This document shows, in pieces, positions 83-37,234 of a stretch of DNA of 64,000 bases. The position numbers and the translations under genes were made by a program. The DNA comes from Escherichia coli (GTDB lineage: Bacteria > Pseudomonadota > Gammaproteobacteria > Enterobacterales > Enterobacteriaceae). Each line of letters opens with the position of its first letter. The stretch's first letter is position 1. The stretch lies in assembly GCF_030384885.1 (NCBI RefSeq), contig NZ_CP128613.1; one strand, written 5' to 3'. The notes beneath the pieces were generated by a model that was given only the letters and a program-made list of their open reading frames with translations, had not been told where the DNA came from and ran no database searches.

Positions 83-988
83 CTATATTTCCAGACACCT
101 GTTATCACTTAACCCATTACTGGCCTGCTGCCGTAGATATTCCCGTGGCGAGCGATAACCCAGTGCACTATGCGGATGCCATTCGTTATAATGCTCGAAC
201 GCCTCTGCAAGGTTCTTTGCTGCCGTTAACCCGTCTGGTTTAGGCATGACACTGATGTAGTCACGCTTTATCGTTTTCACGAAGCTCTCTGCTATGCCGT
301 TACTCTCCGGACTCCGCACCGCCGTGTTCTTCGGTTCAAGCCCCAACATCCGGGCAAACTGCCGTGTTTCATTAGCCCGGTAGCATGAACCATTATCCGT
401 CAGCCACTCTACTGGAGACGCCGGAAGCTCGTTGCCGAAGCGGCGTTCAACCGCTCCCAGCATGACGTCCTGTACTGTTTCACTGTCGAAGCCGCCCGTA
501 GTGACCGCCCAGTACAGTGCCTCACGGTCACAGCAGTCCAGCGCGAACGTGACTCGCAGTTTTTCTCCGTTATCACAGCGGAACTCGAACCCGTCAGAGC
601 ACCATCGTTGATTGCTTTCTTTCACGGCCACTTTGCCAGTATGTGCCCGCTTCGATGGCGGTACAGCGGTTTTTCGCTCAAGCAACAGCGCATTCTGGCG
701 CATGATCCGGTAAACACGTTTGGCATTGATCGCAGGCATACCATCAAGTTCGGCCTGTCTGCGAAGCAGCGCCCATACCCGACGATAACCATACGTGGGC
801 AGCTCTCCGATAACATGGTGTATACGGAGAAGTACATCCATATCATCTGAGTGACGGCTGCGGCGACCATCTTTCCAGTCATCGGTTCGTCTGAGAATGA
901 CGTGCAACTGCGCACGCGACACCCGGAGACAACGGCTGACTAAGCTTACTCCCCATCCCCGGGCAATAAGGGCGCGTGCGCTATCCAC
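83..988 (-). CDS. insD: IS2 transposase OrfB (InsD), DDE integrase-like
   Basis: 301-aa ORF; sequence recalled as IS2 InsD (IS3 family). Confidence 0.9.
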
Positions 989-1311
989 TTTTTTGCACGC
1001 CCATATTCAACGGCTTCTTTAAGGAGTTCATTTTCCATCGTTTTTTTGCCGAGCAGGCGCTGGAGTTCTTTAATCTGCTTCATGGCAGCAGCAAGTTCAG
1101 AGGCAGGAACGACCTGTTCTCCTGCGGCCACAGCAGTAAGACTTCCCTCCTGGTATTGCTTGCGCCAGAGAAATAGCTGGCTGGCTGCCACACCGTGTTG
1201 CCGGGCAACAAGGGAGACCGTCATTCCCGGTTCAAAACTCTGCTGAACAATAGCGATCTTTTCCTGTGTAGTACGCCGTCTGCGTTTCTCCGGTCCTAAG
1301 ACATCAATCAT
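946..1311 (-). CDS. insC: IS2 OrfA (InsC), HTH regulator/transposase N-terminal part
   Basis: 121 aa from [24 protein letters not shown]..; overlaps insD as expected for frameshift-type IS3 family. Confidence 0.85.
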
Positions 1312-1402
1312 CTGCTCTCCAATGACTAGTCTAAAAACTAGTATTAAGACTATCACTTATTTAAGTGATATTGGTTGTCTGGAGATTCAGGGGGCCAGTC
1401 TA

Positions 1403-1407
1403 AGGAG
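1403..1407. repeat. IS2 target-site duplication copy 2 (AGGAG)
   Basis: Direct repeat of 67..71. Confidence 0.8.
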
Positions 1408-2480
1408 CCTATGCCTATTGGTCACTAGAATTAGAAGACATGATCAGTACAGATGACGCCTATGTTACGGGGAATGCTGATCCAATTTCTGCACAAGTCT
1501 CAGGCAGTGTCACTGTCGTTAATCATAAAGATACGAACTTTGTTCGACAGGGCGACATTTTAGTTTCACTGGATAAAACTGATGCTACGATTGCACTCAA
1601 TAAAGCTAAAAATAATCTGGCAAATATTGTGCGACAAACGAATAAACTATACTTACAGGATAAACAATACAGTGCCGAAGTCGCTTCAGCACGTATCCAG
1701 TATCAACAATCTTTAGAAGATTATAATCGTCGTGTGCCGCTAGCAAAGCAGGGGGTTATTTCAAAAGAAACGCTGGAGCACACCAAAGATACGTTAATAA
1801 GTAGCAAAGCGGCATTGAATGCAGCTATTCAGGCTTATAAAGCGAACAAAGCCTTAGTAATGAACACACCATTAAATCGCCAGCCACAAGTTGTTGAAGC
1901 TGCGGATGCAACCAAAGAAGCCTGGTTAGCGCTTAAGCGTACGGATATTAAGAGTCCGGTTACTGGTTATATTGCCCAGCGAAGTGTGCAGGTTGGCGAA
2001 ACAGTGAGTCCTGGACAATCGTTAATGGCTGTCGTACCGGCACGTCAAATGTGGGTTAATGCCAACTTTAAAGAAACACAACTCACGGATGTACGGATTG
2101 GTCAATCGGTTAATATAATCAGCGATCTTTATGGTGAAAATGTTGTGTTTCATGGTCGGGTGACAGGGATCAATATGGGAACCGGCAATGCGTTCTCCTT
2201 ATTACCTGCACAAAATGCGACGGGGAACTGGATCAAAATCGTTCAGCGTGTACCTGTTGAGGTGTCTCTGGATCCAAAAGAACTCATGGAACATCCCTTG
2301 CGCATTGGTTTATCGATGACTGCAACCATTGATACCAGGAACGAAGACATTGCCGATATGCCTGATCTGGCTTCATCCGTGACGTCCATGCCTGCTTACA
2401 CCAGTAAGGCCTTAGTTATCGATACCAGTCCGATAGAAAAAGAGATTAACAACATTATTTCTCATAATGGACAACTTTAA
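1403..2480 (+). pseudogene. emrK: emrK 3' portion (EmrA-family membrane fusion protein), separated from its promoter and first ~35 codons by IS2
   Basis: ORF track 1440..2480 (346 aa) is EmrA/EmrK-like; frame is open back to the IS2 junction at 1403. Confidence 0.85.
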
Positions 2481-4018
2481 TGGCAATCACTAAATCAACT
2501 CCGGCACCATTAACCGGTGGGACGTTATGGTGCGTCACTATTGCGTTGTCATTAGCGACGTTTATGCAAATGTTGGACTCCACTATTTCTAACGTCGCAA
2601 TACCCACAATATCTGGCTTTCTCGGAGCATCAACGGACGAAGGCACATGGGTTATCACATCGTTTGGCGTAGCAAATGCCATTGCGATCCCTGTTACCGG
2701 CAGGCTGGCACAAAGAATAGGCGAATTAAGGTTATTTTTACTATCAGTAACCTTCTTTTCGCTGTCTTCATTAATGTGTAGTCTTTCGACTAATCTTGAT
2801 GTTCTTATATTTTTTAGAGTCGTCCAGGGATTAATGGCGGGGCCGTTAATTCCATTGTCACAGAGTTTATTATTAAGGAATTATCCGCCAGAAAAAAGAA
2901 CATTTGCTTTGGCGTTATGGTCAATGACCGTAATTATCGCTCCGATTTGTGGGCCGATATTGGGTGGCTATATTTGTGATAACTTTAGTTGGGGATGGAT
3001 ATTTTTAATCAATGTCCCTATGGGGATTATCGTCCTGACATTATGTTTAACTTTACTTAAAGGAAGAGAAACTGAAACTTCACCGGTCAAAATGAATTTA
3101 CCAGGGTTGACCCTGTTAGTGCTCGGTGTTGGTGGCTTGCAAATTATGCTTGATAAAGGGCGCGATCTGGATTGGTTCAACTCGAGTACAATAATAATAT
3201 TAACAGTAGTATCAGCTATTTCTCTGATCTCTTTAGTCATTTGGGAGTCGACCTCAGAGAACCCGATTCTTGACCTCAGTTTGTTTAAGTCCCGTAATTT
3301 CACCATTGGTATTGTGAGTATCACCTGCGCGTATTTATTTTACTCTGGAGCGATAGTACTTATGCCGCAGTTACTCCAGGAAACGATGGGGTATAATGCG
3401 ATATGGGCCGGACTTGCTTATGCGCCCATCGGCATCATGCCACTATTGATTTCGCCTTTGATAGGACGTTATGGCAACAAAATAGACATGCGGGTGTTAG
3501 TGACATTTAGTTTTTTGATGTATGCGGTTTGCTATTACTGGCGTTCTGTGACATTTATGCCAACGATTGATTTCACAGGCATCATTTTGCCACAGTTTTT
3601 CCAGGGATTCGCCGTTGCCTGTTTCTTTTTACCCTTAACAACGATTTCGTTTTCAGGGTTGCCAGATAATAAATTTGCCAATGCCTCGAGTATGAGTAAT
3701 TTTTTTCGTACCCTGTCAGGATCAGTTGGTACGTCGTTGACAATGACGTTGTGGGGACGACGCGAATCGTTACACCATAGTCAGTTGACAGCAACCATCG
3801 ATCAATTTAACCCCGTGTTTAATTCATCATCACAAATTATGGATAAATACTATGGTTCGCTTTCAGAGGTTCTTAATGAAATTAATAATGAAATAACTCA
3901 GCAGTCACTTTCAATTTCTGCAAATGAGATTTTCCGTATGGCGGCTATTGCTTTTATCTTACTTACGGTATTGGTTTGGTTTGCGAAACCGCCGTTTACA
4001 GCGAAAGGTGTTGGGTGA
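2480..4018 (+). CDS. emrY: MFS multidrug efflux transporter EmrY (EmrB paralogue)
   Basis: 512-aa 14-TM MFS protein; start overlaps emrK stop (TAATG). Confidence 0.93.
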   Translation: MAITKSTPAPLTGGTLWCVTIALSLATFMQMLDSTISNVAIPTISGFLGASTDEGTWVITSFGVANAIAIPVTGRLAQRIGELRLFLLSVTFFSLSSLMCSLSTNLDVLIFFRVVQGLMAGPLIPLSQSLLLRNYPPEKRTFALALWSMTVIIAPICGPILGGYICDNFSWGWIFLINVPMGIIVLTLCLTLLKGRETETSPVKMNLPGLTLLVLGVGGLQIMLDKGRDLDWFNSSTIIILTVVSAISLISLVIWESTSENPILDLSLFKSRNFTIGIVSITCAYLFYSGAIVLMPQLLQETMGYNAIWAGLAYAPIGIMPLLISPLIGRYGNKIDMRVLVTFSFLMYAVCYYWRSVTFMPTIDFTGIILPQFFQGFAVACFFLPLTTISFSGLPDNKFANASSMSNFFRTLSGSVGTSLTMTLWGRRESLHHSQLTATIDQFNPVFNSSSQIMDKYYGSLSEVLNEINNEITQQSLSISANEIFRMAAIAFILLTVLVWFAKPPFTAKGVG

Positions 4019-4097
4019 TGGTAAAAAGAGGAGGCTAGAGCAGGCAAGTCCGCGGAATTTTGAACCTGTACCATCATTTTATATGGATATTATCAGG

Positions 4098-4134
4098 CAG
4101 CATCGCTCACCCAGGGAAAGGATGGCGATGCTGC
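4098..4134. terminator. 10-bp inverted repeat (GCAGCATCGC..GCGATGCTGC) between convergent emrY and dsdA
   Basis: Stem-loop seen in sequence; no clear U-run, so terminator function is uncertain. Confidence 0.3.
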
Positions 4135-4146
4135 GGTGAAACGTTA

Positions 4147-5475
4147 TTAACGGCCTTTAGCCAGATATTGCTTCATCTCTTCTTCCGGCACCATTCCACC
4201 TCCTGTCGCCCACACCAGATGAGTGGCATTACGCAGTTGTTCTGTGCTGAAACCTTGCATCTGTTGGTAAATTACTGATGCGCACACGCGCTGAGGCCCG
4301 GCCATACCCGCCAGTGCTGAAGGCTCAAGACGAATGTCTTCTTCCTGCGCCAGCCAGCCAAGCATGTCATACATGGTTTGATCGCTAAGGGTATAGAAGC
4401 CATCCAGCAGACGCTCCATTGCCCGCCCGACAAAGCCTGATGCGCGACCAACTGCAAGGCCATCCGCGGCGGTAAGGTTGTCGATACCAATATCCTGAAC
4501 AGAAATCTGATCGTGTAATCCAGTATGGACGCCTAACAGCATACAAGGGGAGTGCGTGGGTTCGGCAAAAAAGCAGTGAACATGATCGCCAAACGCCAGT
4601 TTAAGCCCGAATGCGACGCCACCAGGACCACCGCCAACGCCACACGGCAGATAGACAAACAGAGGGTTATCAGCATCGACAATACGACCTTGCTCGGCAA
4701 ATTGCGCTTTAAGACGCTGGCCTGCGACGGAATACCCAAGGAACAACGTGCGGGAATTCTCGTCATCAATAAAGAAACAGTTCGGGTCAGACTGCGCTGC
4801 TTTACGTCCTTCCTCGACGGCAACCCCATAATCTTGCTCATATTCCACGACCGTAACGCCATGGCTGCGCAGTTTCGCTTTTTTCCATGCCCGGGCATCA
4901 GCAGACATATGTACTGTCACCTTAAAGCCAATGCGGGCGCTCATAATACCGATTGATAACCCCAGATTTCCGGTTGAGCCCACAGCAATGCTGTATTGGC
5001 TAAAGAACTGCTTAAACTCCGGAGAAAGCAGTTTGCTGTAGTCATCTTCAAGCGTCAGCAACCCTGCTTCCAGAGCCAGTTTTTCTGCATGTGCCAGGAC
5101 TTCATAAATCCCGCCGCGTGCTTTTATGGAGCCGGAAATAGGCAAATGGCTATCTTTTTTCAGTAACAGTTGCCCGCTGATCGGTTGCTGATATTCCTTT
5201 TCCAGCCGTTTTTGCATAGCCGGAATGGCAACCAGTTCTGATTCAATAATCCCTCCAGAGGCAGCCGTTTCAGGAAATGCTTTTGCCAGATAGGGGGCAA
5301 AACGAGATAAGCGCGCATGGGCGTCCTGAACATCCTGTTCGGTCAGGCCAACATAAGGTAAACCTTCAGCCAATGAGGTCGTGCCAGGATTGAACCAGGT
5401 GGTTTCTTTAAGAGCAACCAGATCCTTTACCAACGGATACTGGGCGATGAGCGAGTTCATTTTAGCGTTTTCCAT
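4147..5475 (-). CDS. dsdA: D-serine ammonia-lyase (D-serine dehydratase), PLP-dependent
   Basis: 442-aa ORF recognised as DsdA. Confidence 0.95.
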
Positions 5476-5675
5476 AGTATGTCTCTTTGCGCTTCGATGA
5501 TAAATGACAGCAGGAATGTGCCCGCCAGAGCGACGACTGAAGCGATAAATGTCGCTGTCGTATAGTATTTATATGTTTCACTGAGCGTAGCGCCGCAAAA
5601 TTGTTTCATCAGCCAGAAAAACGAGTCCGTAACGATCGTGCAGCCAATCGCAATAATTTCCGGGCTGATGTCTGG
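5457..5675 (-). pseudogene. dsdX: 3' remnant of dsdX (GntP-family D-serine transporter), about 72 codons
   Basis: Minus-strand frame translates ..[45 protein letters not shown].., typical GntP-family C-terminus; the frame is closed by stops upstream of about 5675; exact 3' end and overlap with dsdA start uncertain. Confidence 0.55.
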
Positions 5676-5931
5676 TTACAGCCACAGCACAATGATCCAT
5701 ATTTATATTTTTTCTCCGGGTGGGTGATGCCAGTCGGCATGTTTTACCTACTTGTCTGCATGGTGACTCGTTGGCGAGAACAGAGGCGGAATTGGTTACA
5801 ATTGTCCGGGAATTCTTGTTATTTTTTACTGTATTGTCGTGTCGGGTGATAGGACGTTAAGAATATCGCTGGATCTCGCCAGTGACGTCTGTTTCTGCTA
5901 CAGTGCCCGTTTTACGGCAAACGGCTTGGGT

Positions 5932-6927
5932 ATGGCTTCATTAAAGGATGTCGCACGCCTGGCGGGAGTGTCGATGATGACTGTCTCCCGGGTGATGCAT
6001 AATGCAGAATCTGTGCGTCCTGCAACGCGTGACCGCGTATTGCAGGCAATCCAAACCCTGAATTATGTTCCTGATCTTTCCGCTCGTAAGATGCGCGCTC
6101 AGGGACGTAAGCCGTCGACTCTCGCCGTGCTGGCGCAGGATACTGCTACCACTCCTTTCTCTGTTGATATTCTGCTTGCCATTGAACAAACCGCCAGCGA
6201 GTTTGGCTGGAATAGTTTTTTAATCAATATTTTTTCTGAAGATGACGCTGCCCGCGCGGCACGTCAGCTGCTTGCCCTCCGTCCGGATGGCATTATCTAT
6301 ACTACAATGGGACTGAGGCATATCACGCTGCCTGAGTCTCTGCATGGTGAAAATATTGTATTGGCGAACTGTGTGGCGGATGACCCAGCGTTACCCAGTT
6401 ATATCCCTGATGATTACACTGCCCAATATGAAGCAACACAGCATTTGCTCGCGGCGGGCTATCGTCAACCGTTATGCTTCTGGCTACCGGAAGGTGCGTT
6501 GGCAACAGGGTATCGTCGGCAGGGATTTGAGCAGGCCTGGCGTGATGCTGGACGAGATCTGGCTGAGGTGAAACAATTTCACATGGCCATAGGTGATGAT
6601 CACTACACCGATCTCGCAAGTATACTCAATGCCCACTTCCAGTCTGTAAAACCAGATTTTGATGTTCTGATTTGTGGTAACGATCGCGCAGCCTTTGTTG
6701 CTTATCAGGTTCTTCTGGCGAAGGGGGTACGTATCCCGCAGGATGTCGCCGTAATGGGCTTTGATAATCTGGTTGGCGTCGGGCATCTGTTTTTACCGCC
6801 GCTGACCACAATTCAGCTTCCACATGACATTATCGGGCGGGAAGCTGCATTGCATATTATTGAAGGTCGTGAAGGGGGAAGGGTAACGCAGATCCCTTGC
6901 CCGCTGTTGATCCGTTGTTCCACCTGA
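5932..6927 (+). CDS. cscR: LacI-family repressor of sucrose genes, CscR
   Basis: 331 aa from MASLKDVARLAGVSMMTVSRV (HTH) with periplasmic-binding-fold body; the ORF-track start at 5839 is probably an upstream extension. Confidence 0.9.
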   Translation: MASLKDVARLAGVSMMTVSRVMHNAESVRPATRDRVLQAIQTLNYVPDLSARKMRAQGRKPSTLAVLAQDTATTPFSVDILLAIEQTASEFGWNSFLINIFSEDDAARAARQLLALRPDGIIYTTMGLRHITLPESLHGENIVLANCVADDPALPSYIPDDYTAQYEATQHLLAAGYRQPLCFWLPEGALATGYRRQGFEQAWRDAGRDLAEVKQFHMAIGDDHYTDLASILNAHFQSVKPDFDVLICGNDRAAFVAYQVLLAKGVRIPQDVAVMGFDNLVGVGHLFLPPLTTIQLPHDIIGREAALHIIEGREGGRVTQIPCPLLIRCST

Positions 6928-6934
6928 TATTATG

Positions 6935-8368
6935 TTACCCCAGTTGCCAGAGTGCTCCATGTTGCAGCACGCCCACTCCGTGGGCGGCATAGAGCGACAG
7001 TTCCCGTTCTTCTGGCTGCGGATAGATTCGGCTACTCATCACAGCTTCCCCGTCGTTAATAAATACTTCCACGGATGATGTATCGATAAATATCCTTAGG
7101 GCGAGCGTGTCACGCTGCGGGAGGGGAATACTACGGTAACCATCTAAATTCTCGTGTGGGTAATACCGCCACAAAACAAGTCGCTCAGATTGGTTATCAA
7201 TATACAGCCGCATTCCCGTGCCGAGCTGTAATCCGTAATGTTCGGCATCGCTGTTCTTCAGAGCCCACTGCAACTGAATCTCAACCGCTTGCGCGTTTTC
7301 CTGCAAAACATATTTGTTGCTGATTGTGTGGGGAGAGATTGATTGATGCTGCTGGCGTAACGACTCAGCTTCGTGTACCGGGCGTTGTAGGAGTTTGCCA
7401 TTGCTCTCAGATAGCTCGCGCGCCAGCGTCATGCAGCCTGCCCAGCCTTCACGTTTTGAGGGCATTGGCGATTCCCACATATCCATCCAGCCGATAACAA
7501 TACGCCGACCATCCTTCGCTAAAAAGCTTTGTGGTGCATAAAAGTCATGCCCATAATCAAGTTCAGTAAAATGCCCGGATTGTGCAAAAAGTCGTCCTGG
7601 CGACCATATTCCGGGTATTACACCACTTTGAAAGCGATTTCGATAATTGTATCCCTCGGCATTCATTCCCTGCGGGGAAAACATCAGATAATGTTGATCG
7701 CCAAGGCTGAAAAAGTCCGGACATTCCCACATATAGCTTTCACCCGCATCAGCGTGGGCCAGTACGCGATCGAAAGTCCATTCACGCAATGAACTACCGC
7801 GATAAAGCAGGATCTGTCCCGTGTTGCCTGGGTCTTTCGCCCCGACTACCATCCACCAGGTGTCGGCTTCACGCCACACTTTAGGATCGCGGAAGTGCAT
7901 GATTCCTTCTGGTGGAGTGAGGATCACACCTTGTTTCTCGAAATGAATACCATCCCGGCTGGTAGCCAGACATTGTACTTCACGAATTGCATCGTCATTA
8001 CCTGCACCATCGAGCCAGACGTGGCCGGTGTAGATAAGTGAGAGGACACCATTGTCATCAACAGCACTACCTGAAAAACACCCGTCTTTGTCATTCTCGT
8101 CTCCTGGCGCTAGCGCAATAGGCTCGTGCTGCCAGTGGATCATATCGTCGCTGGTGGCATGTCCCCAGTGCATTGGCCCCCAGTGTTCGCTCATCGGGTG
8201 ATGCTGATAAAACGCGTGATAACGATTGTTAAACCAGATCAGGCCGTTTGGATCGTTCATCCACCCGGCTGGAGGCGCGAGGTGAAAATGGGGATAAAAA
8301 GTATTCCCCCGGCGCTCGTGAAGTTTTGCTAGTGCGTTTTGCGCCGCATGCAATCGAGATTGCGTCAT
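6935..8368 (-). CDS. cscA: Sucrose-6-phosphate hydrolase / invertase (GH32), CscA
   Basis: GH32 motifs WMNDPNG, FRDP, EC present; start taken at MTQSRLHAAQ (477 aa). Confidence 0.92.
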   Translation of the reverse strand: MTQSRLHAAQNALAKLHERRGNTFYPHFHLAPPAGWMNDPNGLIWFNNRYHAFYQHHPMSEHWGPMHWGHATSDDMIHWQHEPIALAPGDENDKDGCFSGSAVDDNGVLSLIYTGHVWLDGAGNDDAIREVQCLATSRDGIHFEKQGVILTPPEGIMHFRDPKVWREADTWWMVVGAKDPGNTGQILLYRGSSLREWTFDRVLAHADAGESYMWECPDFFSLGDQHYLMFSPQGMNAEGYNYRNRFQSGVIPGIWSPGRLFAQSGHFTELDYGHDFYAPQSFLAKDGRRIVIGWMDMWESPMPSKREGWAGCMTLARELSESNGKLLQRPVHEAESLRQQHQSISPHTISNKYVLQENAQAVEIQLQWALKNSDAEHYGLQLGTGMRLYIDNQSERLVLWRYYPHENLDGYRSIPLPQRDTLALRIFIDTSSVEVFINDGEAVMSSRIYPQPEERELSLYAAHGVGVLQHGALWQLG

Positions 8369-8402
8369 TTTAATCATCCTGGTTAAGCAAATTTGGTGAA
8401 TT

Positions 8403-8414
8403 GTTAACGTTAAC
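8403..8414. promoter_or_regulatory. Palindrome GTTAACGTTAAC, copy 1 (candidate LacI-family/CscR operator)
   Basis: Perfect 12-bp palindrome with central CG in cscA-cscK divergent region. Confidence 0.4.
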
Positions 8415-8447
8415 TTTTATAAAAATAAAGCCCCTTATCTTTATAAA

Positions 8448-8463
8448 TGTGATTAATATCACA
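8448..8463. promoter_or_regulatory. CRP (cAMP receptor protein) binding site TGTGATTAATATCACA
   Basis: Perfect match to both CRP half-sites TGTGA-N6-TCACA. Confidence 0.55.
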
Positions 8464-8466
8464 AAT

Positions 8467-8478
8467 GTTAACGTTAAC
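8467..8478. promoter_or_regulatory. Palindrome GTTAACGTTAAC, copy 2 (candidate CscR operator)
   Basis: Second identical 12-bp palindrome 64 bp from the first. Confidence 0.4.
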
Positions 8479-8583
8479 TATGACGTTTTGTGATCGAATG
8501 TGCATGTTTTAGTAAATCCATGACGATTTTGCGAAAAAGAGGTTTATCACTATGCGTAAGTCAGATGAATTTGAGGGAAAAAA

Positions 8584-9498
8584 ATGTCAGCCAAAGTATG
8601 GGTTTTAGGGGATGCGGTTGTCGATCTCTTGCCTGAATCAGACGGGCGCCTACTGCCTTGTCCTGGCGGCGCGCCAGCTAACGTTGCGGTGGGAATCGCC
8701 AGATTAGGCGGAATAAGTGGGTTTATAGGCCGGGTGGGTGATGATCCTTTTGGCGCGTTAATGCAAAGAACGCTGCTAACGGAGGGAGTCGATATCACGT
8801 ATCTGAAGCAGGATGAATGGCACCGAACATCCACGGTGCTTGTCGATCTGAACGATCAGGGGGAACGTTCATTTACGTTTATGGTCCGCCCTAGTGCCGA
8901 TCTTTTTTTAGAGACGACTGACTTGCCCTTCTGGCGACATGGCGAATGGTTACATCTCTGTTCTATTGCGTTGTCTGCTGAACCTTCGCGTACCAGCGCA
9001 TTTACTGCGATGACGGCGATCCGGCATGCCGGAGGTTTTGTCAGCTTCGATCCCAATATTCGTGAAGATCTGTGGCAAGACGAGCATTTGCTCCGCTTGT
9101 GTTTGCGACAGGCGCTACAACTGGCGGATGTCGTCAAGCTCTCGGAAGAAGAATGGCGACTTATCAGCGGAAAAACACAGAACGATCGGGATATATGTGC
9201 TCTGGCAAAAGAGTATGAGATCGCCATGCTGTTGGTGACTAAAGGTGCAGAAGGGGTGGTGGTCTGTTATCGAGGACAAGTTCACCATTTTGCTGGAATG
9301 TCTGTGAATTGTGTCGATAGCACGGGGGCGGGAGATGCGTTCGTTGCCGGGTTACTCACAGGTCTTTCCTCTACGGGATTAGAGACCGATGAGAGAGAAA
9401 TGCGACGAATTATCGATCTCGCTCAACGTTGCGGAGCGCTTGCAGTAACGGCGAAAGGGGCAATGACAGCGCTGCCATGTCGACAAGATCTGGAATAG
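8584..9498 (+). CDS. cscK: Fructokinase (PfkB/ribokinase family), CscK
   Basis: 304-aa sugar-kinase ORF with GAGD motif region. Confidence 0.9.
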   Translation: MSAKVWVLGDAVVDLLPESDGRLLPCPGGAPANVAVGIARLGGISGFIGRVGDDPFGALMQRTLLTEGVDITYLKQDEWHRTSTVLVDLNDQGERSFTFMVRPSADLFLETTDLPFWRHGEWLHLCSIALSAEPSRTSAFTAMTAIRHAGGFVSFDPNIREDLWQDEHLLRLCLRQALQLADVVKLSEEEWRLISGKTQNDRDICALAKEYEIAMLLVTKGAEGVVVCYRGQVHHFAGMSVNCVDSTGAGDAFVAGLLTGLSSTGLETDEREMRRIIDLAQRCGALAVTAKGAMTALPCRQDLE

Positions 9499-9569
9499 TG
9501 AGAAATAAACGGCGAGGCCGTTCTTGTCTCTGAATAGGACGTGAATATTTTAACGACAGGCAGGTAATT

Positions 9570-33848: not shown

Positions 33849-35921
<2,073 letters not shown>

Positions 35922-35930
35922 CTATTAATT

Positions 35931-35966
35931 GGCTGATCGGACTTGTTCGGCGTACAAGTGTACGCT
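35931..35966. promoter_or_regulatory. fabB promoter FabR / FadR binding region
   Basis: Reverse complement reads AGCGTACACTTGTACGCCGAACAAGTCCGATCAGCC, the palindromic FabR-type site recalled from fabB. Confidence 0.6.
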
Positions 35967-36013
35967 ATTGTGCATTCGAAACTTACTCTATGTGCGACTT
36001 ACAGAGGTATTGA

Positions 36014-37234
36014 ATGAAACGTGCAGTGATTACTGGCCTGGGCATTGTTTCCAGCATCGGTAATAACCAGCAGGAAGTCCTGGCATCTCTGCGTGAAGGA
36101 CGTTCAGGGATCACTTTCTCTCAGGAGCTGAAGGATTCCGGCATGCGTAGCCACGTCTGGGGCAACGTAAAACTGGATACCACTGGCCTCATTGACCGCA
36201 AAGTTGTGCGCTTTATGAGCGACGCATCCATTTATGCATTCCTTTCTATGGAGCAGGCAATTGCAGATGCTGGCCTCTCCCCGGAAGCTTATCAGAATAA
36301 CCCGCGCGTTGGCCTGATTGCAGGTTCTGGCGGCGGTTCCCCGCGTTTCCAGGTGTTCGGTGCTGACGCTATGCGTAGCCCGCGCGGCCTGAAAGCGGTT
36401 GGCCCGTATGTGGTCACCAAAGCGATGGCATCTGGCGTTTCTGCCTGCCTCGCCACGCCGTTTAAAATTCACGGCGTTAACTACTCCATCAGCTCCGCGT
36501 GTGCGACTTCCGCACACTGTATCGGTAACGCAGTAGAGCAGATCCAACTGGGCAAACAGGACATCGTGTTTGCTGGCGGCGGCGAAGAGCTGTGCTGGGA
36601 AATGGCTTGCGAATTCGACGCGATGGGCGCGCTGTCTACTAAATACAACGACACCCCAGAAAAAGCCTCCCGTACTTACGACGCTCACCGTGACGGTTTC
36701 GTTATCGCTGGCGGCGGCGGTATGGTGGTGGTTGAAGAGCTGGAACACGCGCTGGCGCGTGGGGCTCACATCTATGCTGAAATCGTTGGTTACGGCGCAA
36801 CGTCTGATGGTGCAGACATGGTTGCTCCGTCTGGCGAAGGCGCAGTTCGCTGCATGCAGATGGCGATGCACGGTGTTGATACGCCAATCGACTACCTGAA
36901 CTCTCACGGTACTTCAACTCCGGTTGGCGACGTGAAAGAGCTGGCGGCTATCCGTGAAGTATTCGGTGATAAGAGCCCGGCGATTTCTGCAACCAAAGCA
37001 ATGACCGGTCACTCTCTGGGCGCTGCGGGTGTGCAGGAAGCTATCTACTCTCTGCTGATGCTGGAACACGGCTTTATCGCACCGAGCATCAACATTGAAG
37101 AGCTGGACGAGCAGGCTGCGGGTCTGAACATTGTGACCGAAACGACCGATCGCGAACTGACTACCGTTATGTCTAACAGCTTCGGCTTCGGTGGCACCAA
37201 CGCCACGCTGGTAATGCGTAAGCTGAAAGATTAA
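36014..37234 (+). CDS. fabB: 3-oxoacyl-ACP synthase I (KAS I)
   Basis: 406 aa with active-site Cys region ..[12 protein letters not shown].. Confidence 0.96.

What the first reader, a model, noticed from the sequence alone, without database searches (positions are those of the whole stretch)
35931..35966. Palindromic FabR/FadR regulatory site upstream of fabB
The reverse complement reads AGCGTACACTTGTACGCCGAACAAGTCCGATCAGCC, which I recognise as the fabB unsaturated-fatty-acid control region. Expected biology.
Basis: partly seen in the sequence, partly recalled or inferred. Interest (0 to 1): 0.15.

Follow-up and report, generated by a model that had tools for sequence, protein, structure and literature searches.

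The report
Known FadR/FabR operator of fabB
This 36-base stretch is the well-known pair of adjacent protein-binding sites (activator FadR, repressor FabR) in the promoter of the E. coli fatty-acid gene fabB; it is real, extremely conserved, and entirely ordinary.

Summary
Observation confirmed and interpretation supported. The window is an E. coli chromosome. The stretch lies 48-83 nt upstream of fabB (36014-37234, +), in the 158-bp fabB/mnmC divergent intergenic region. It is identical to K-12 and sits inside the published fabB EMSA probe, where GGCGTACAAGTGTACGCT is marked as the FabR palindrome and the FadR site lies just 5' of it. It is two abutting operators, not one palindrome. The FadR 17-mer (35931-35947) is a poor dyad. 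The FabR 18-mer (35949-35966) has perfect 7+7 arms. With the published TSS (37 nt before the ATG), FadR overlaps a weak -35 (TTGTTC) and FabR fills the 17-nt spacer up to a weak -10 (TATTGT). That geometry fits activation by FadR and occlusion by FabR. An unbiased sample of 42 enterobacterial fabB upstream regions shows 94% identity in the 36-mer against 59% for the rest of the intergenic region. The 36-mer is invariant in 5425/5426 E. coli genomes, and fabA carries the same module (30/36 identical). Already known; low interest.

The parts
35931..35947 (+). FadR (GntR-family) operator, GGCTGATCGGACTTGTT; about -46..-30 relative to the published TSS
   Evidence: It has 2 mismatches to the consensus core CTGGTCNGACCWGTT. 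The only other <=2-mismatch hits in the window are the fadL and fadI operators. Consensus taken from PMC9329746. It lies inside the probe bound by FadR in EMSA (PMC4537474). CTGATCGGACTTGTT is identical in nearly all of 42 Enterobacterales and in fabA. The first two bases GG are only 0.5-0.7 conserved.
35949..35966 (.). FabR (TetR-family) operator, 18-bp palindrome GGCGTACAAGTGTACGCT (arms GCGTACA / TGTACGC, centre AG)
   Evidence: Inverted repeat I3, 7+7, 100% complementary. Single hit in the window, 0.01 expected. Marked as the FabR palindrome in PMC4537474 Table 2. Mean identity 0.94 across Enterobacterales, with the dyad centre (35958) the only freely variable position.
35943..35948 (+). 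-35-like hexamer TTGTTC (inferred), overlapped by the right half of the FadR site
   Evidence: Inferred from the TSS 37 bp upstream of the ATG (PMC7083825) and a 17-nt spacing to the -10-like hexamer. The same TTGTTC-N17-TATAAT arrangement is seen in Orbaceae fabB. Only 3/6 to consensus, and the promoter scan reports nothing, so the core promoter is weak.
35966..35971 (+). -10-like hexamer TATTGT (inferred); its first base is the last base of the FabR palindrome
   Evidence: TAnnGT is conserved across Enterobacterales while the two middle bases vary (TT/AA/CT/GA). It lies 5-6 nt upstream of the published TSS. The equivalent position in Orbaceae reads TATAAT.
35977..35977 (+). fabB transcription start (literature; +/-1 nt depending on counting)
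   Evidence: [quoted passage not shown] ATG at 36014.
36014..37234 (+). fabB, beta-ketoacyl-ACP synthase I (regulated gene)
   Evidence: NF005935 equivalog, E 9e-243, 805 bits. Annotated fabB in all matching E. coli genomes.
33849..35855 (-). mnmC, divergently transcribed neighbour (GTG start at 35855 by the K-12 annotation)
   Evidence: NF002480, 943 bits. K-12 annotation mapped through alignment A1.
35902..35916 (+). Published CpxR box of the fabB promoter; here GTCAGgctgcGCAAA, against K-12 GTAAGgctgcGCAAA
   Evidence: PMC7083825 Table 1 and DNase footprint at -119..-94. SNP at 35904. Not part of the finding, but part of the same promoter.

Best explanation
Positions 35931-35966 are the composite FadR/FabR control region of the E. 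coli fabB promoter. A FadR dimer (GntR family) binds the 17-bp site 35931-35947, centred near -38/-39. This site overlaps a weak -35 element (TTGTTC), and FadR activates transcription from there. Long-chain acyl-CoA releases FadR, so fabB expression falls when exogenous fatty acids are available. One base pair downstream, a FabR dimer (TetR family) binds the 18-bp palindrome 35949-35966. That palindrome fills the 17-nt spacer between -35 and -10 and touches the -10 element (TATTGT), so bound FabR occludes RNA polymerase and represses. FabR binding is enhanced by unsaturated acyl thioesters. Together the two sites tune FabB, and with it the unsaturated:saturated fatty-acid ratio of the membrane. 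Shown here: sequence identity to the published sites, motif specificity, promoter-relative geometry, and very strong purifying selection on exactly this block. Taken from the literature: which protein binds, the ligands, and the sign of regulation. Inferred: the -35/-10 assignment and the occlusion mechanism.
For: Exact sequence and position; fabB identity. The 36-mer is identical to K-12 and lies inside the published EMSA probe, with the FabR palindrome marked. FadR binds that probe in EMSA, and the same paper states that FadR activates and FabR represses fabA and fabB (PMC4537474). FabR binds the fabB promoter in vivo in Salmonella by ChIP-chip/qPCR, fabB is up in a fabR mutant, and unsaturated thioesters are the ligands (PMC4804515). 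A fabB-gfp fusion is derepressed in E. coli delta-fabR (PMC9017321). TSS 37 bp upstream of the ATG (PMC7083825). Motif specificity: FabR pattern 1 hit against 0.01 expected; FadR core hits only at fadL, fadI and fabB. Phylogenetic footprint from loci sampled by the FabB N-terminal coding pattern, not by the site: 0.94 mean identity in the 36-mer against 0.59 in the remaining intergenic DNA, over 42 distinct Enterobacterales sequences. In random 250-nt control stretches from the same loci the FabR pattern mostly stays at >=6 mismatches; the ~2% of control stretches with <=4 mismatches are most likely stretches that overlap the site itself, since the loci include the fabB promoter (my reading, not checked). 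Invariant in 5425/5426 complete E. coli genomes, while a position 27 nt upstream is polymorphic. The same module is at the unlinked fabA promoter, 30/36 identical. Orbaceae keep TTGTTC-palindrome-TATAAT without a FadR site, consistent with the inferred geometry and with FadR compensating for a weak -10 in enterics.
Against: No binding or expression experiment can be run here. The FadR site is a relatively poor match to the consensus (4 of 16 specified positions differ) and a poor dyad. The -35/-10 hexamers are my inference and score below the promoter scanner's threshold. PMC4804515 notes that flanking sequence matters for FabR binding without ligand, so the functional FabR site may extend beyond the 18-mer.
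Confidence: 0.96

Rival explanations
1. The conserved block is simply the core sigma-70 promoter of fabB (-35, spacer, -10), conserved for RNA polymerase binding, with no dedicated regulator sites.
For: The block does coincide with the inferred -35/-10 region.
Against: Promoter spacers are not normally sequence-constrained, yet the 17-nt spacer is about 94% conserved and palindromic. Conservation extends 12 nt upstream of the -35 element. The -35 and -10 hexamers themselves are poor (3/6 and 4/6; no scanner hit). The same 36-nt module recurs at fabA. Published EMSA, ChIP and reporter data implicate FadR and FabR.
Confidence: 0.02
2. The palindrome acts as an RNA or DNA hairpin (terminator, attenuator or 5'-UTR structure, for example in a divergent mnmC transcript), not as a protein operator.
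For: There is a perfect 7-bp inverted repeat. Some species change both paired positions 35952 G->T and 35963 C->A together (Erwinia, Ca. Pantoea persica).
Against: Folding energy is not different from shuffles on either strand (z -0.84 and -1.03). There is no T-run and no terminator-like site. The site lies upstream of the fabB TSS. A 2-nt loop is sterically impossible. Single-sided changes that would break pairing are at least as common as double changes (Pectobacterium, Brenneria, Moellerella, and several Pantoea), which fits a dimeric protein tolerating G/T at that half-site position.
Confidence: 0.01
3. Only one of the two regulators acts here (a FabR-only or FadR-only site), and the other half is conserved by hitch-hiking.
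For: PMC4537474 reports that Shewanella and V. cholerae fabB lack a FadR site. Orbaceae fabB keeps only the FabR palindrome.
Against: Both halves are equally and independently conserved across Enterobacterales (0.94 each). FadR binds the E. coli fabB probe in EMSA. fabB is derepressed in delta-fabR, measured in a delta-fadR background.
Confidence: 0.01

Closest known systems
E. coli K-12 fabB promoter FadR and FabR sites (Campbell & Cronan 2001; McCue et al. 2001; Zhang et al. 2002; Feng & Cronan 2011)
   Same: Identical 36-nt sequence, same gene, same distance to the ATG.
   Different: Nothing within the site. This strain differs from K-12 at 35929 (T for A, 2 nt upstream of the FadR site) and at 35904 (inside the CpxR box).
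E. coli fabA promoter FadR/FabR module
   Same: Same architecture: FadR 17-mer, 1 nt, FabR 18-mer, then TAT. 30/36 identical, with CTGATCGGACTTGTTC identical. Same two regulators according to PMC4537474.
   Different: The fabA palindrome is less symmetric (AGCGTACA / TGTTAGCT) than the fabB one. fabA has additional promoters (S1-S3, PMC7083825).
FadR repressor operators of the fad regulon (fadL, fadI, fadBA, fadD)
   Same: Same 17-bp consensus family. Two such operators lie in this same window, at 16591-16607 and 17276-17292.
   Different: Those sites overlap the TSS or core promoter and repress (PMC9329746). The fabB site sits at about -40 and activates. It deviates from consensus at the GG->GA and CC->CT positions, as the fabA site does.
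FabR box of yqfA/trhA and the Salmonella FabR regulon
   Same: Same repressor, same core ACAnnTGTnnnnT motif (PMC4804515; PMC9017321).
   Different: No adjacent FadR site is reported there. Sequence not compared here.

Membership tests
FadR (GntR-family) operator | Match to the 17-bp consensus aaCTGGTCnGACC(T/A)Gtt | tested here: met
   GGCTGATCGGACTTGTT matches 12 of 16 specified positions and has 2 mismatches to the 15-nt core. At that stringency only the fadL, fadI and fabB promoters are hit in 64 kb (0.51 expected).
FadR (GntR-family) operator | Location in the promoter of a fatty-acid metabolism gene, at about -40 for activated genes | tested here: met
   Site centre 35939 lies about 38 nt upstream of the TSS taken from PMC7083825. 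The downstream gene is fabB.
FadR (GntR-family) operator | Direct binding by FadR, released by long-chain acyl-CoA | not testable with these tools
   Literature only: EMSA with a probe identical over the site (PMC4537474; PMC4259882).
FabR (TetR-family) operator | 18-bp palindrome of the type AGCGTACA-nn-TGTACGCT | tested here: met
   GGCGTACAAGTGTACGCT has 2 mismatches to the ideal palindrome and perfect 7+7 arms. It is identical to the sequence marked as the FabR palindrome in PMC4537474.
FabR (TetR-family) operator | Position compatible with repression (overlapping the core promoter) | tested here: met
   The palindrome occupies the -35/-10 spacer and the first base of the -10-like hexamer, given the published TSS. 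The hexamer assignment is inferred.
FabR (TetR-family) operator | Conservation as a phylogenetic footprint upstream of fabB/fabA orthologues | tested here: met
   0.94 against 0.59 mean identity in 42 Enterobacterales sequences sampled independently of the site. The same element is at fabA.
FabR (TetR-family) operator | FabR occupancy and FabR-dependent repression, enhanced by unsaturated acyl thioesters | not testable with these tools
   Literature only: ChIP and transcriptomics in Salmonella (PMC4804515); fabB-gfp derepression in delta-fabR E. coli (PMC9017321).
Intrinsic terminator / structured RNA | Stable hairpin beyond the shuffle expectation, with a T-run | tested here: not met
   z -0.84 and -1.03. 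No terminator-like site. No Rfam hit here.

The most novel reading that the evidence does not exclude
The composite FadR/FabR site might act bidirectionally and also modulate the divergent tRNA-modification gene mnmC, whose start codon is only 76 nt from the FadR site and whose pairing with fabB appears retained in many of the sampled Enterobacterales (indirect, untested evidence: a sequence that lies in mnmC coding in the window recurs at about -215 to -233 in several of them). That would link membrane lipid state to tRNA wobble modification. Nothing here tests it. I found no literature on it, and did not search for it specifically.
Probability: 0.04. Interest if true: 0.35.

Novelty: already known. 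Interest (0 to 1): 0.07.

Why it matters
It matters only as a positive control. The first-stage reader correctly recognised a textbook regulatory element from raw sequence, with exact boundaries (FadR 17-mer + 1 nt + FabR 18-mer). The site governs the rate-limiting step of unsaturated fatty-acid synthesis and therefore membrane fluidity, but all of this is established. RefSeq/PGAP annotation carries no feature here, so the site is invisible in standard annotation although it is among the most constrained non-coding bases of the locus.

Tried and rejected
(1) Reading the primary papers (Zhu 2009 PMC2787350, Feng & Cronan 2011 PMC4072462, McCue 2001 PMC30389, Campbell & Cronan 2001 PMC99677, Feng & Cronan 2009 PMC2785586): none is held. 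I used later open-access papers that quote the probes, sites and TSS instead.
(2) Generic sigma-70 promoter and terminator scan of 35700-36100: no hits. I read this as a weak, activator-dependent promoter, not as absence of a promoter.
(3) Hairpin/terminator reading: rejected.
(4) Overlapping inverted repeat I1 (ACTTGTTCG/CGTACAAGT, 35941-35959), which bridges the two sites: considered as a possible third dyad and rejected as incidental. About half of the Enterobacterales carry C instead of G at 35958, which weakens it, and fabA lacks it.
(5) The best 'FadR' match at about -215 to -233 in some species (AACAGGTGTACCCTGTT): its counterpart in the window lies inside mnmC coding sequence. It is a tie-break artefact of the mismatch count, and those species still carry CTGATCGGACTTGTT next to the palindrome.
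(6) Rfam scan of the whole window: only tRNA-Arg.

Full report
**Observation.** Window 35931..35966 on the + strand reads GGCTGATCGGACTTGTTCGGCGTACAAGTGTACGCT. The ORF starting 48 nt downstream (36014..37234, +) is beta-ketoacyl-ACP synthase I, FabB (NCBIfam equivalog NF005935, 805 bits against a 630 cut-off). The divergent ORF ending at 35855 (-) is mnmC (NF002480, 943 bits). The 301 bp around the site match 5425 of 5426 complete E. coli genomes, many at 100% (for example E2348/69), always under fabB | mnmC. The window is therefore an E. coli chromosome, and the site lies in the 158-bp fabB/mnmC intergenic region.

The original footprinting papers are not held, but two open-access papers reproduce the E. 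coli fabB EMSA probe: TCTATTAAATGGCTGATCGGACTTGTTCGGCGTACAAGTGTACGCTATTGTGCATTC (PMC4259882; PMC4537474 Table 2). In the latter, GGCGTACAAGTGTACGCT is typographically marked as the predicted FabR palindrome, and the FadR site lies immediately 5' of it. A direct alignment with K-12 MG1655 shows three differences in 191 bp, at 35843, 35904 and 35929, and none within 35931-35966. Because fabB is on the + strand here, the promoter-sense reading is the + strand, with FadR distal and FabR proximal.

**Is it more than chance?**
- A perfect 7+7 inverted repeat with a 2-nt centre is not rare in 64 kb: 0.27 are expected, and 24 of 100 shuffles have at least one.
- The match to the idealised FabR palindrome is unique: 1 hit at <=3 mismatches against 0.01 expected.
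- The FadR consensus core at <=2 mismatches hits only three loci (0.51 expected). These are the fabB site and the operators upstream of fadL (15141..16487, -) and fadI (17319.., +), which I identified by family search. There the published fadL site-2 probe occurs verbatim. The window therefore supplies its own positive controls.
- Only the FabR half is a good palindrome (I3). The FadR 17-mer is a poor dyad (3 of 8 half-site positions), so 'palindromic FabR/FadR site' is loosely worded.

**Independent functional evidence: phylogenetic footprint.** To avoid circularity I sampled fabB loci with a degenerate DNA pattern for the FabB N-terminal coding sequence, not with the site (120 loci). I confirmed orthology by identity to the window's FabB.
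- In all Enterobacterales except one reduced-genome stink-bug symbiont and two Erwinia species, a FabR-type palindrome with <=4 mismatches lies 59-91 nt upstream of the ATG. In the two Erwinia species the mismatch scan's best match fell elsewhere (5 mismatches), although the alignment still shows a variant palindrome at the site. In most species CTGATCGGACTTGTT sits exactly 18 nt further upstream.
- In random 250-nt control stretches from the same loci the FabR pattern mostly stays at >=6 mismatches. The ~2% of control stretches with <=4 mismatches are most likely stretches that overlap the site itself, since the loci include the fabB promoter; I did not check this.
- In an alignment of 42 distinct sequences, mean identity to the window is 0.94 for 35931-35966 (0.94 for each half) against 0.59 for the remaining intergenic DNA.
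- The conserved block actually runs from 35933 to 35967 and continues as TAnnGT + GC. The only freely variable base inside it is 35958, at the dyad centre. G35952/C35963 vary (G/T, C/A) singly or together.
- Within E. coli the 36-mer is invariant in 5425/5426 genomes and is unannotated, whereas position 35904, 27 nt upstream, is polymorphic.
- The unlinked fabA promoter of K-12 carries the same module, 30/36 identical with a 16-nt identical run.

- *Inferred geometry.* I infer a -10 element TATTGT at 35966-35971, because T, A and the final T are conserved across species. I infer a -35 element TTGTTC at 35943-35948, with a 17-nt spacer. Both are weak, and the generic scanner finds no promoter.
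- *Where the sites fall.* The FabR palindrome fills the spacer and touches the -10, which is the geometry of a steric repressor. The FadR site (about -46..-30) overlaps the -35, as expected for an activator working at about -40.
- *Support from Orbaceae.* Orbaceae/Gilliamella fabB reads TTGTTC-[17-nt palindrome]-TATAAT with no FadR site. Where the activator site is absent the -10 is consensus, which supports both the hexamer assignment and the idea that FadR compensates for a weak core promoter in enterics.
- *From the literature.* PMC4537474 reports that FadR binds the fabB probe in EMSA. It also states that FadR activates and FabR represses fabA/fabB, and that acyl-CoA releases FadR. FabR occupies the fabB promoter in vivo in Salmonella, and its binding is enhanced by unsaturated thioesters (PMC4804515). 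A fabB-gfp fusion is derepressed in delta-fabR E. coli (PMC9017321).
- *Status of each step.* The sequence, geometry and constraint are shown here. The proteins, ligands and signs of regulation are from the literature. The occlusion mechanism and the -35/-10 assignment are inferred.

**Rivals.**
- A plain core promoter does not explain a 94%-conserved palindromic spacer, or the recurrence of the module at fabA.
- A hairpin or terminator is excluded: folding z-scores are -0.84 and -1.03, there is no T-run, the loop would be 2 nt, and single-sided arm changes are frequent.
- A one-regulator site is contradicted by the equal conservation of both halves and by the published data.

**Verdict.** This is the already-known FadR/FabR composite operator of fabB, identical to K-12. 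Interest is low. The most novel reading not excluded is bidirectional control of the divergent mnmC, which has no support beyond proximity.

Noticed in passing
window 35902-35916 (SNP at 35904): The published, DNase-footprinted CpxR box of the fabB promoter (K-12 GTAAGgctgcGCAAA; PMC7083825) reads GTCAGgctgcGCAAA in this strain. Allele-specific 41-mers match 1694 (window allele) and 3522 (K-12 allele) of 5426 complete E. coli genomes. The 5' half-site is not conserved across Enterobacterales, and E. albertii and Citrobacter also carry C. CpxR-dependent acid induction of fabB may therefore differ between E. coli lineages.
   Followed up: partly
window 35912-35919: GCAAATTT (about -65..-58 from the fabB TSS) is the only other strongly conserved block of the fabB/mnmC intergenic region across Enterobacterales (0.8-0.9 identity). 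It overlaps the 3' half of the CpxR box. It could be that half-site, an UP-like element, or something for mnmC.
   Followed up: no
window 16549-16607 and 17276-17292: Two further FadR operators lie in the same window. The fadL promoter has site 1 at 16591-16607, and the published fadL site-2 probe occurs verbatim at 16549-16583. The fadI (fadIJ) promoter has ATCAGGTCAGACCACTT at 17276-17292.
   Followed up: yes
window 35997-36005; L123 (K-12 fabA) just 5' of the ATG: fabA and fabB share the 9-mer CTTACAGAG immediately upstream of their start codons, beyond the FadR/FabR module. Only the GAGG (Shine-Dalgarno) part is well conserved across species, so this is probably chance or RBS context.
   Followed up: partly
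L011, L097 (Orbaceae, Gilliamella), about -72 from the fabB ATG: fabB promoter reads TTGTTC-AGCTTACAAGTGTACGC-TATAAT: the FabR palindrome sits in the spacer of a near-consensus promoter, with no FadR site upstream.
   Followed up: partly
L021, L059, L056, L117, L008, L014, L032 (Colwelliaceae/Alteromonadaceae), about -111 to -59 from the fabB ATG: The order of the sites is reversed relative to E. coli. A FabR-like palindrome is followed by an overlapping or nearby FadR-like palindrome, for example AGTGTACAAGTGTACGCTGGACAGACCAGTA (and AACTAGTAnTACCAGTT in some Colwellia). This implies different regulatory logic for FadR at fabB in these marine bacteria.
   Followed up: partly
L003, L013, L025, L028, L033, L038, L063, L039, L103, L118 (Vibrionaceae), about -72 from the fabB ATG: Vibrionaceae fabB upstream regions lack a full FabR palindrome within 250 nt (only Grimontia has one). 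They share a conserved (G)ATTGTAC...GGAAAGCTGACCACTT element of unknown assignment; GACCACTT resembles a FadR half-site.
   Followed up: no
L007 (Pantoea sp. Brub, stink-bug symbiont): This reduced-genome symbiont keeps fabB (79% identity) but has lost both the FadR and FabR sites. Two other symbiotic or Candidatus Pantoea (L070, L036) retain slightly degraded versions.
   Followed up: no
window 83-11327: Strain-variable region at tRNA-Arg(CCT) argW (11253-11327, -). It holds a csc sucrose-utilisation cluster (LacI-type regulator 5839-6927, invertase 6935-8377, fructokinase 8584-9498, permease 9570-10817) next to dsdA (4147-5475). emrK/emrY-like genes lie at 1440-4018 and an IS2 TnpB at 83-988. 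From my own knowledge (not checked here), this looks like the known csc-for-dsdCX replacement at argW.
   Followed up: partly
window 35929: T here against A in K-12, 2 nt upstream of the FadR site (TTAATTGG vs TTAAATGG). It lies in a poorly conserved stretch and probably has no consequence.
   Followed up: partly
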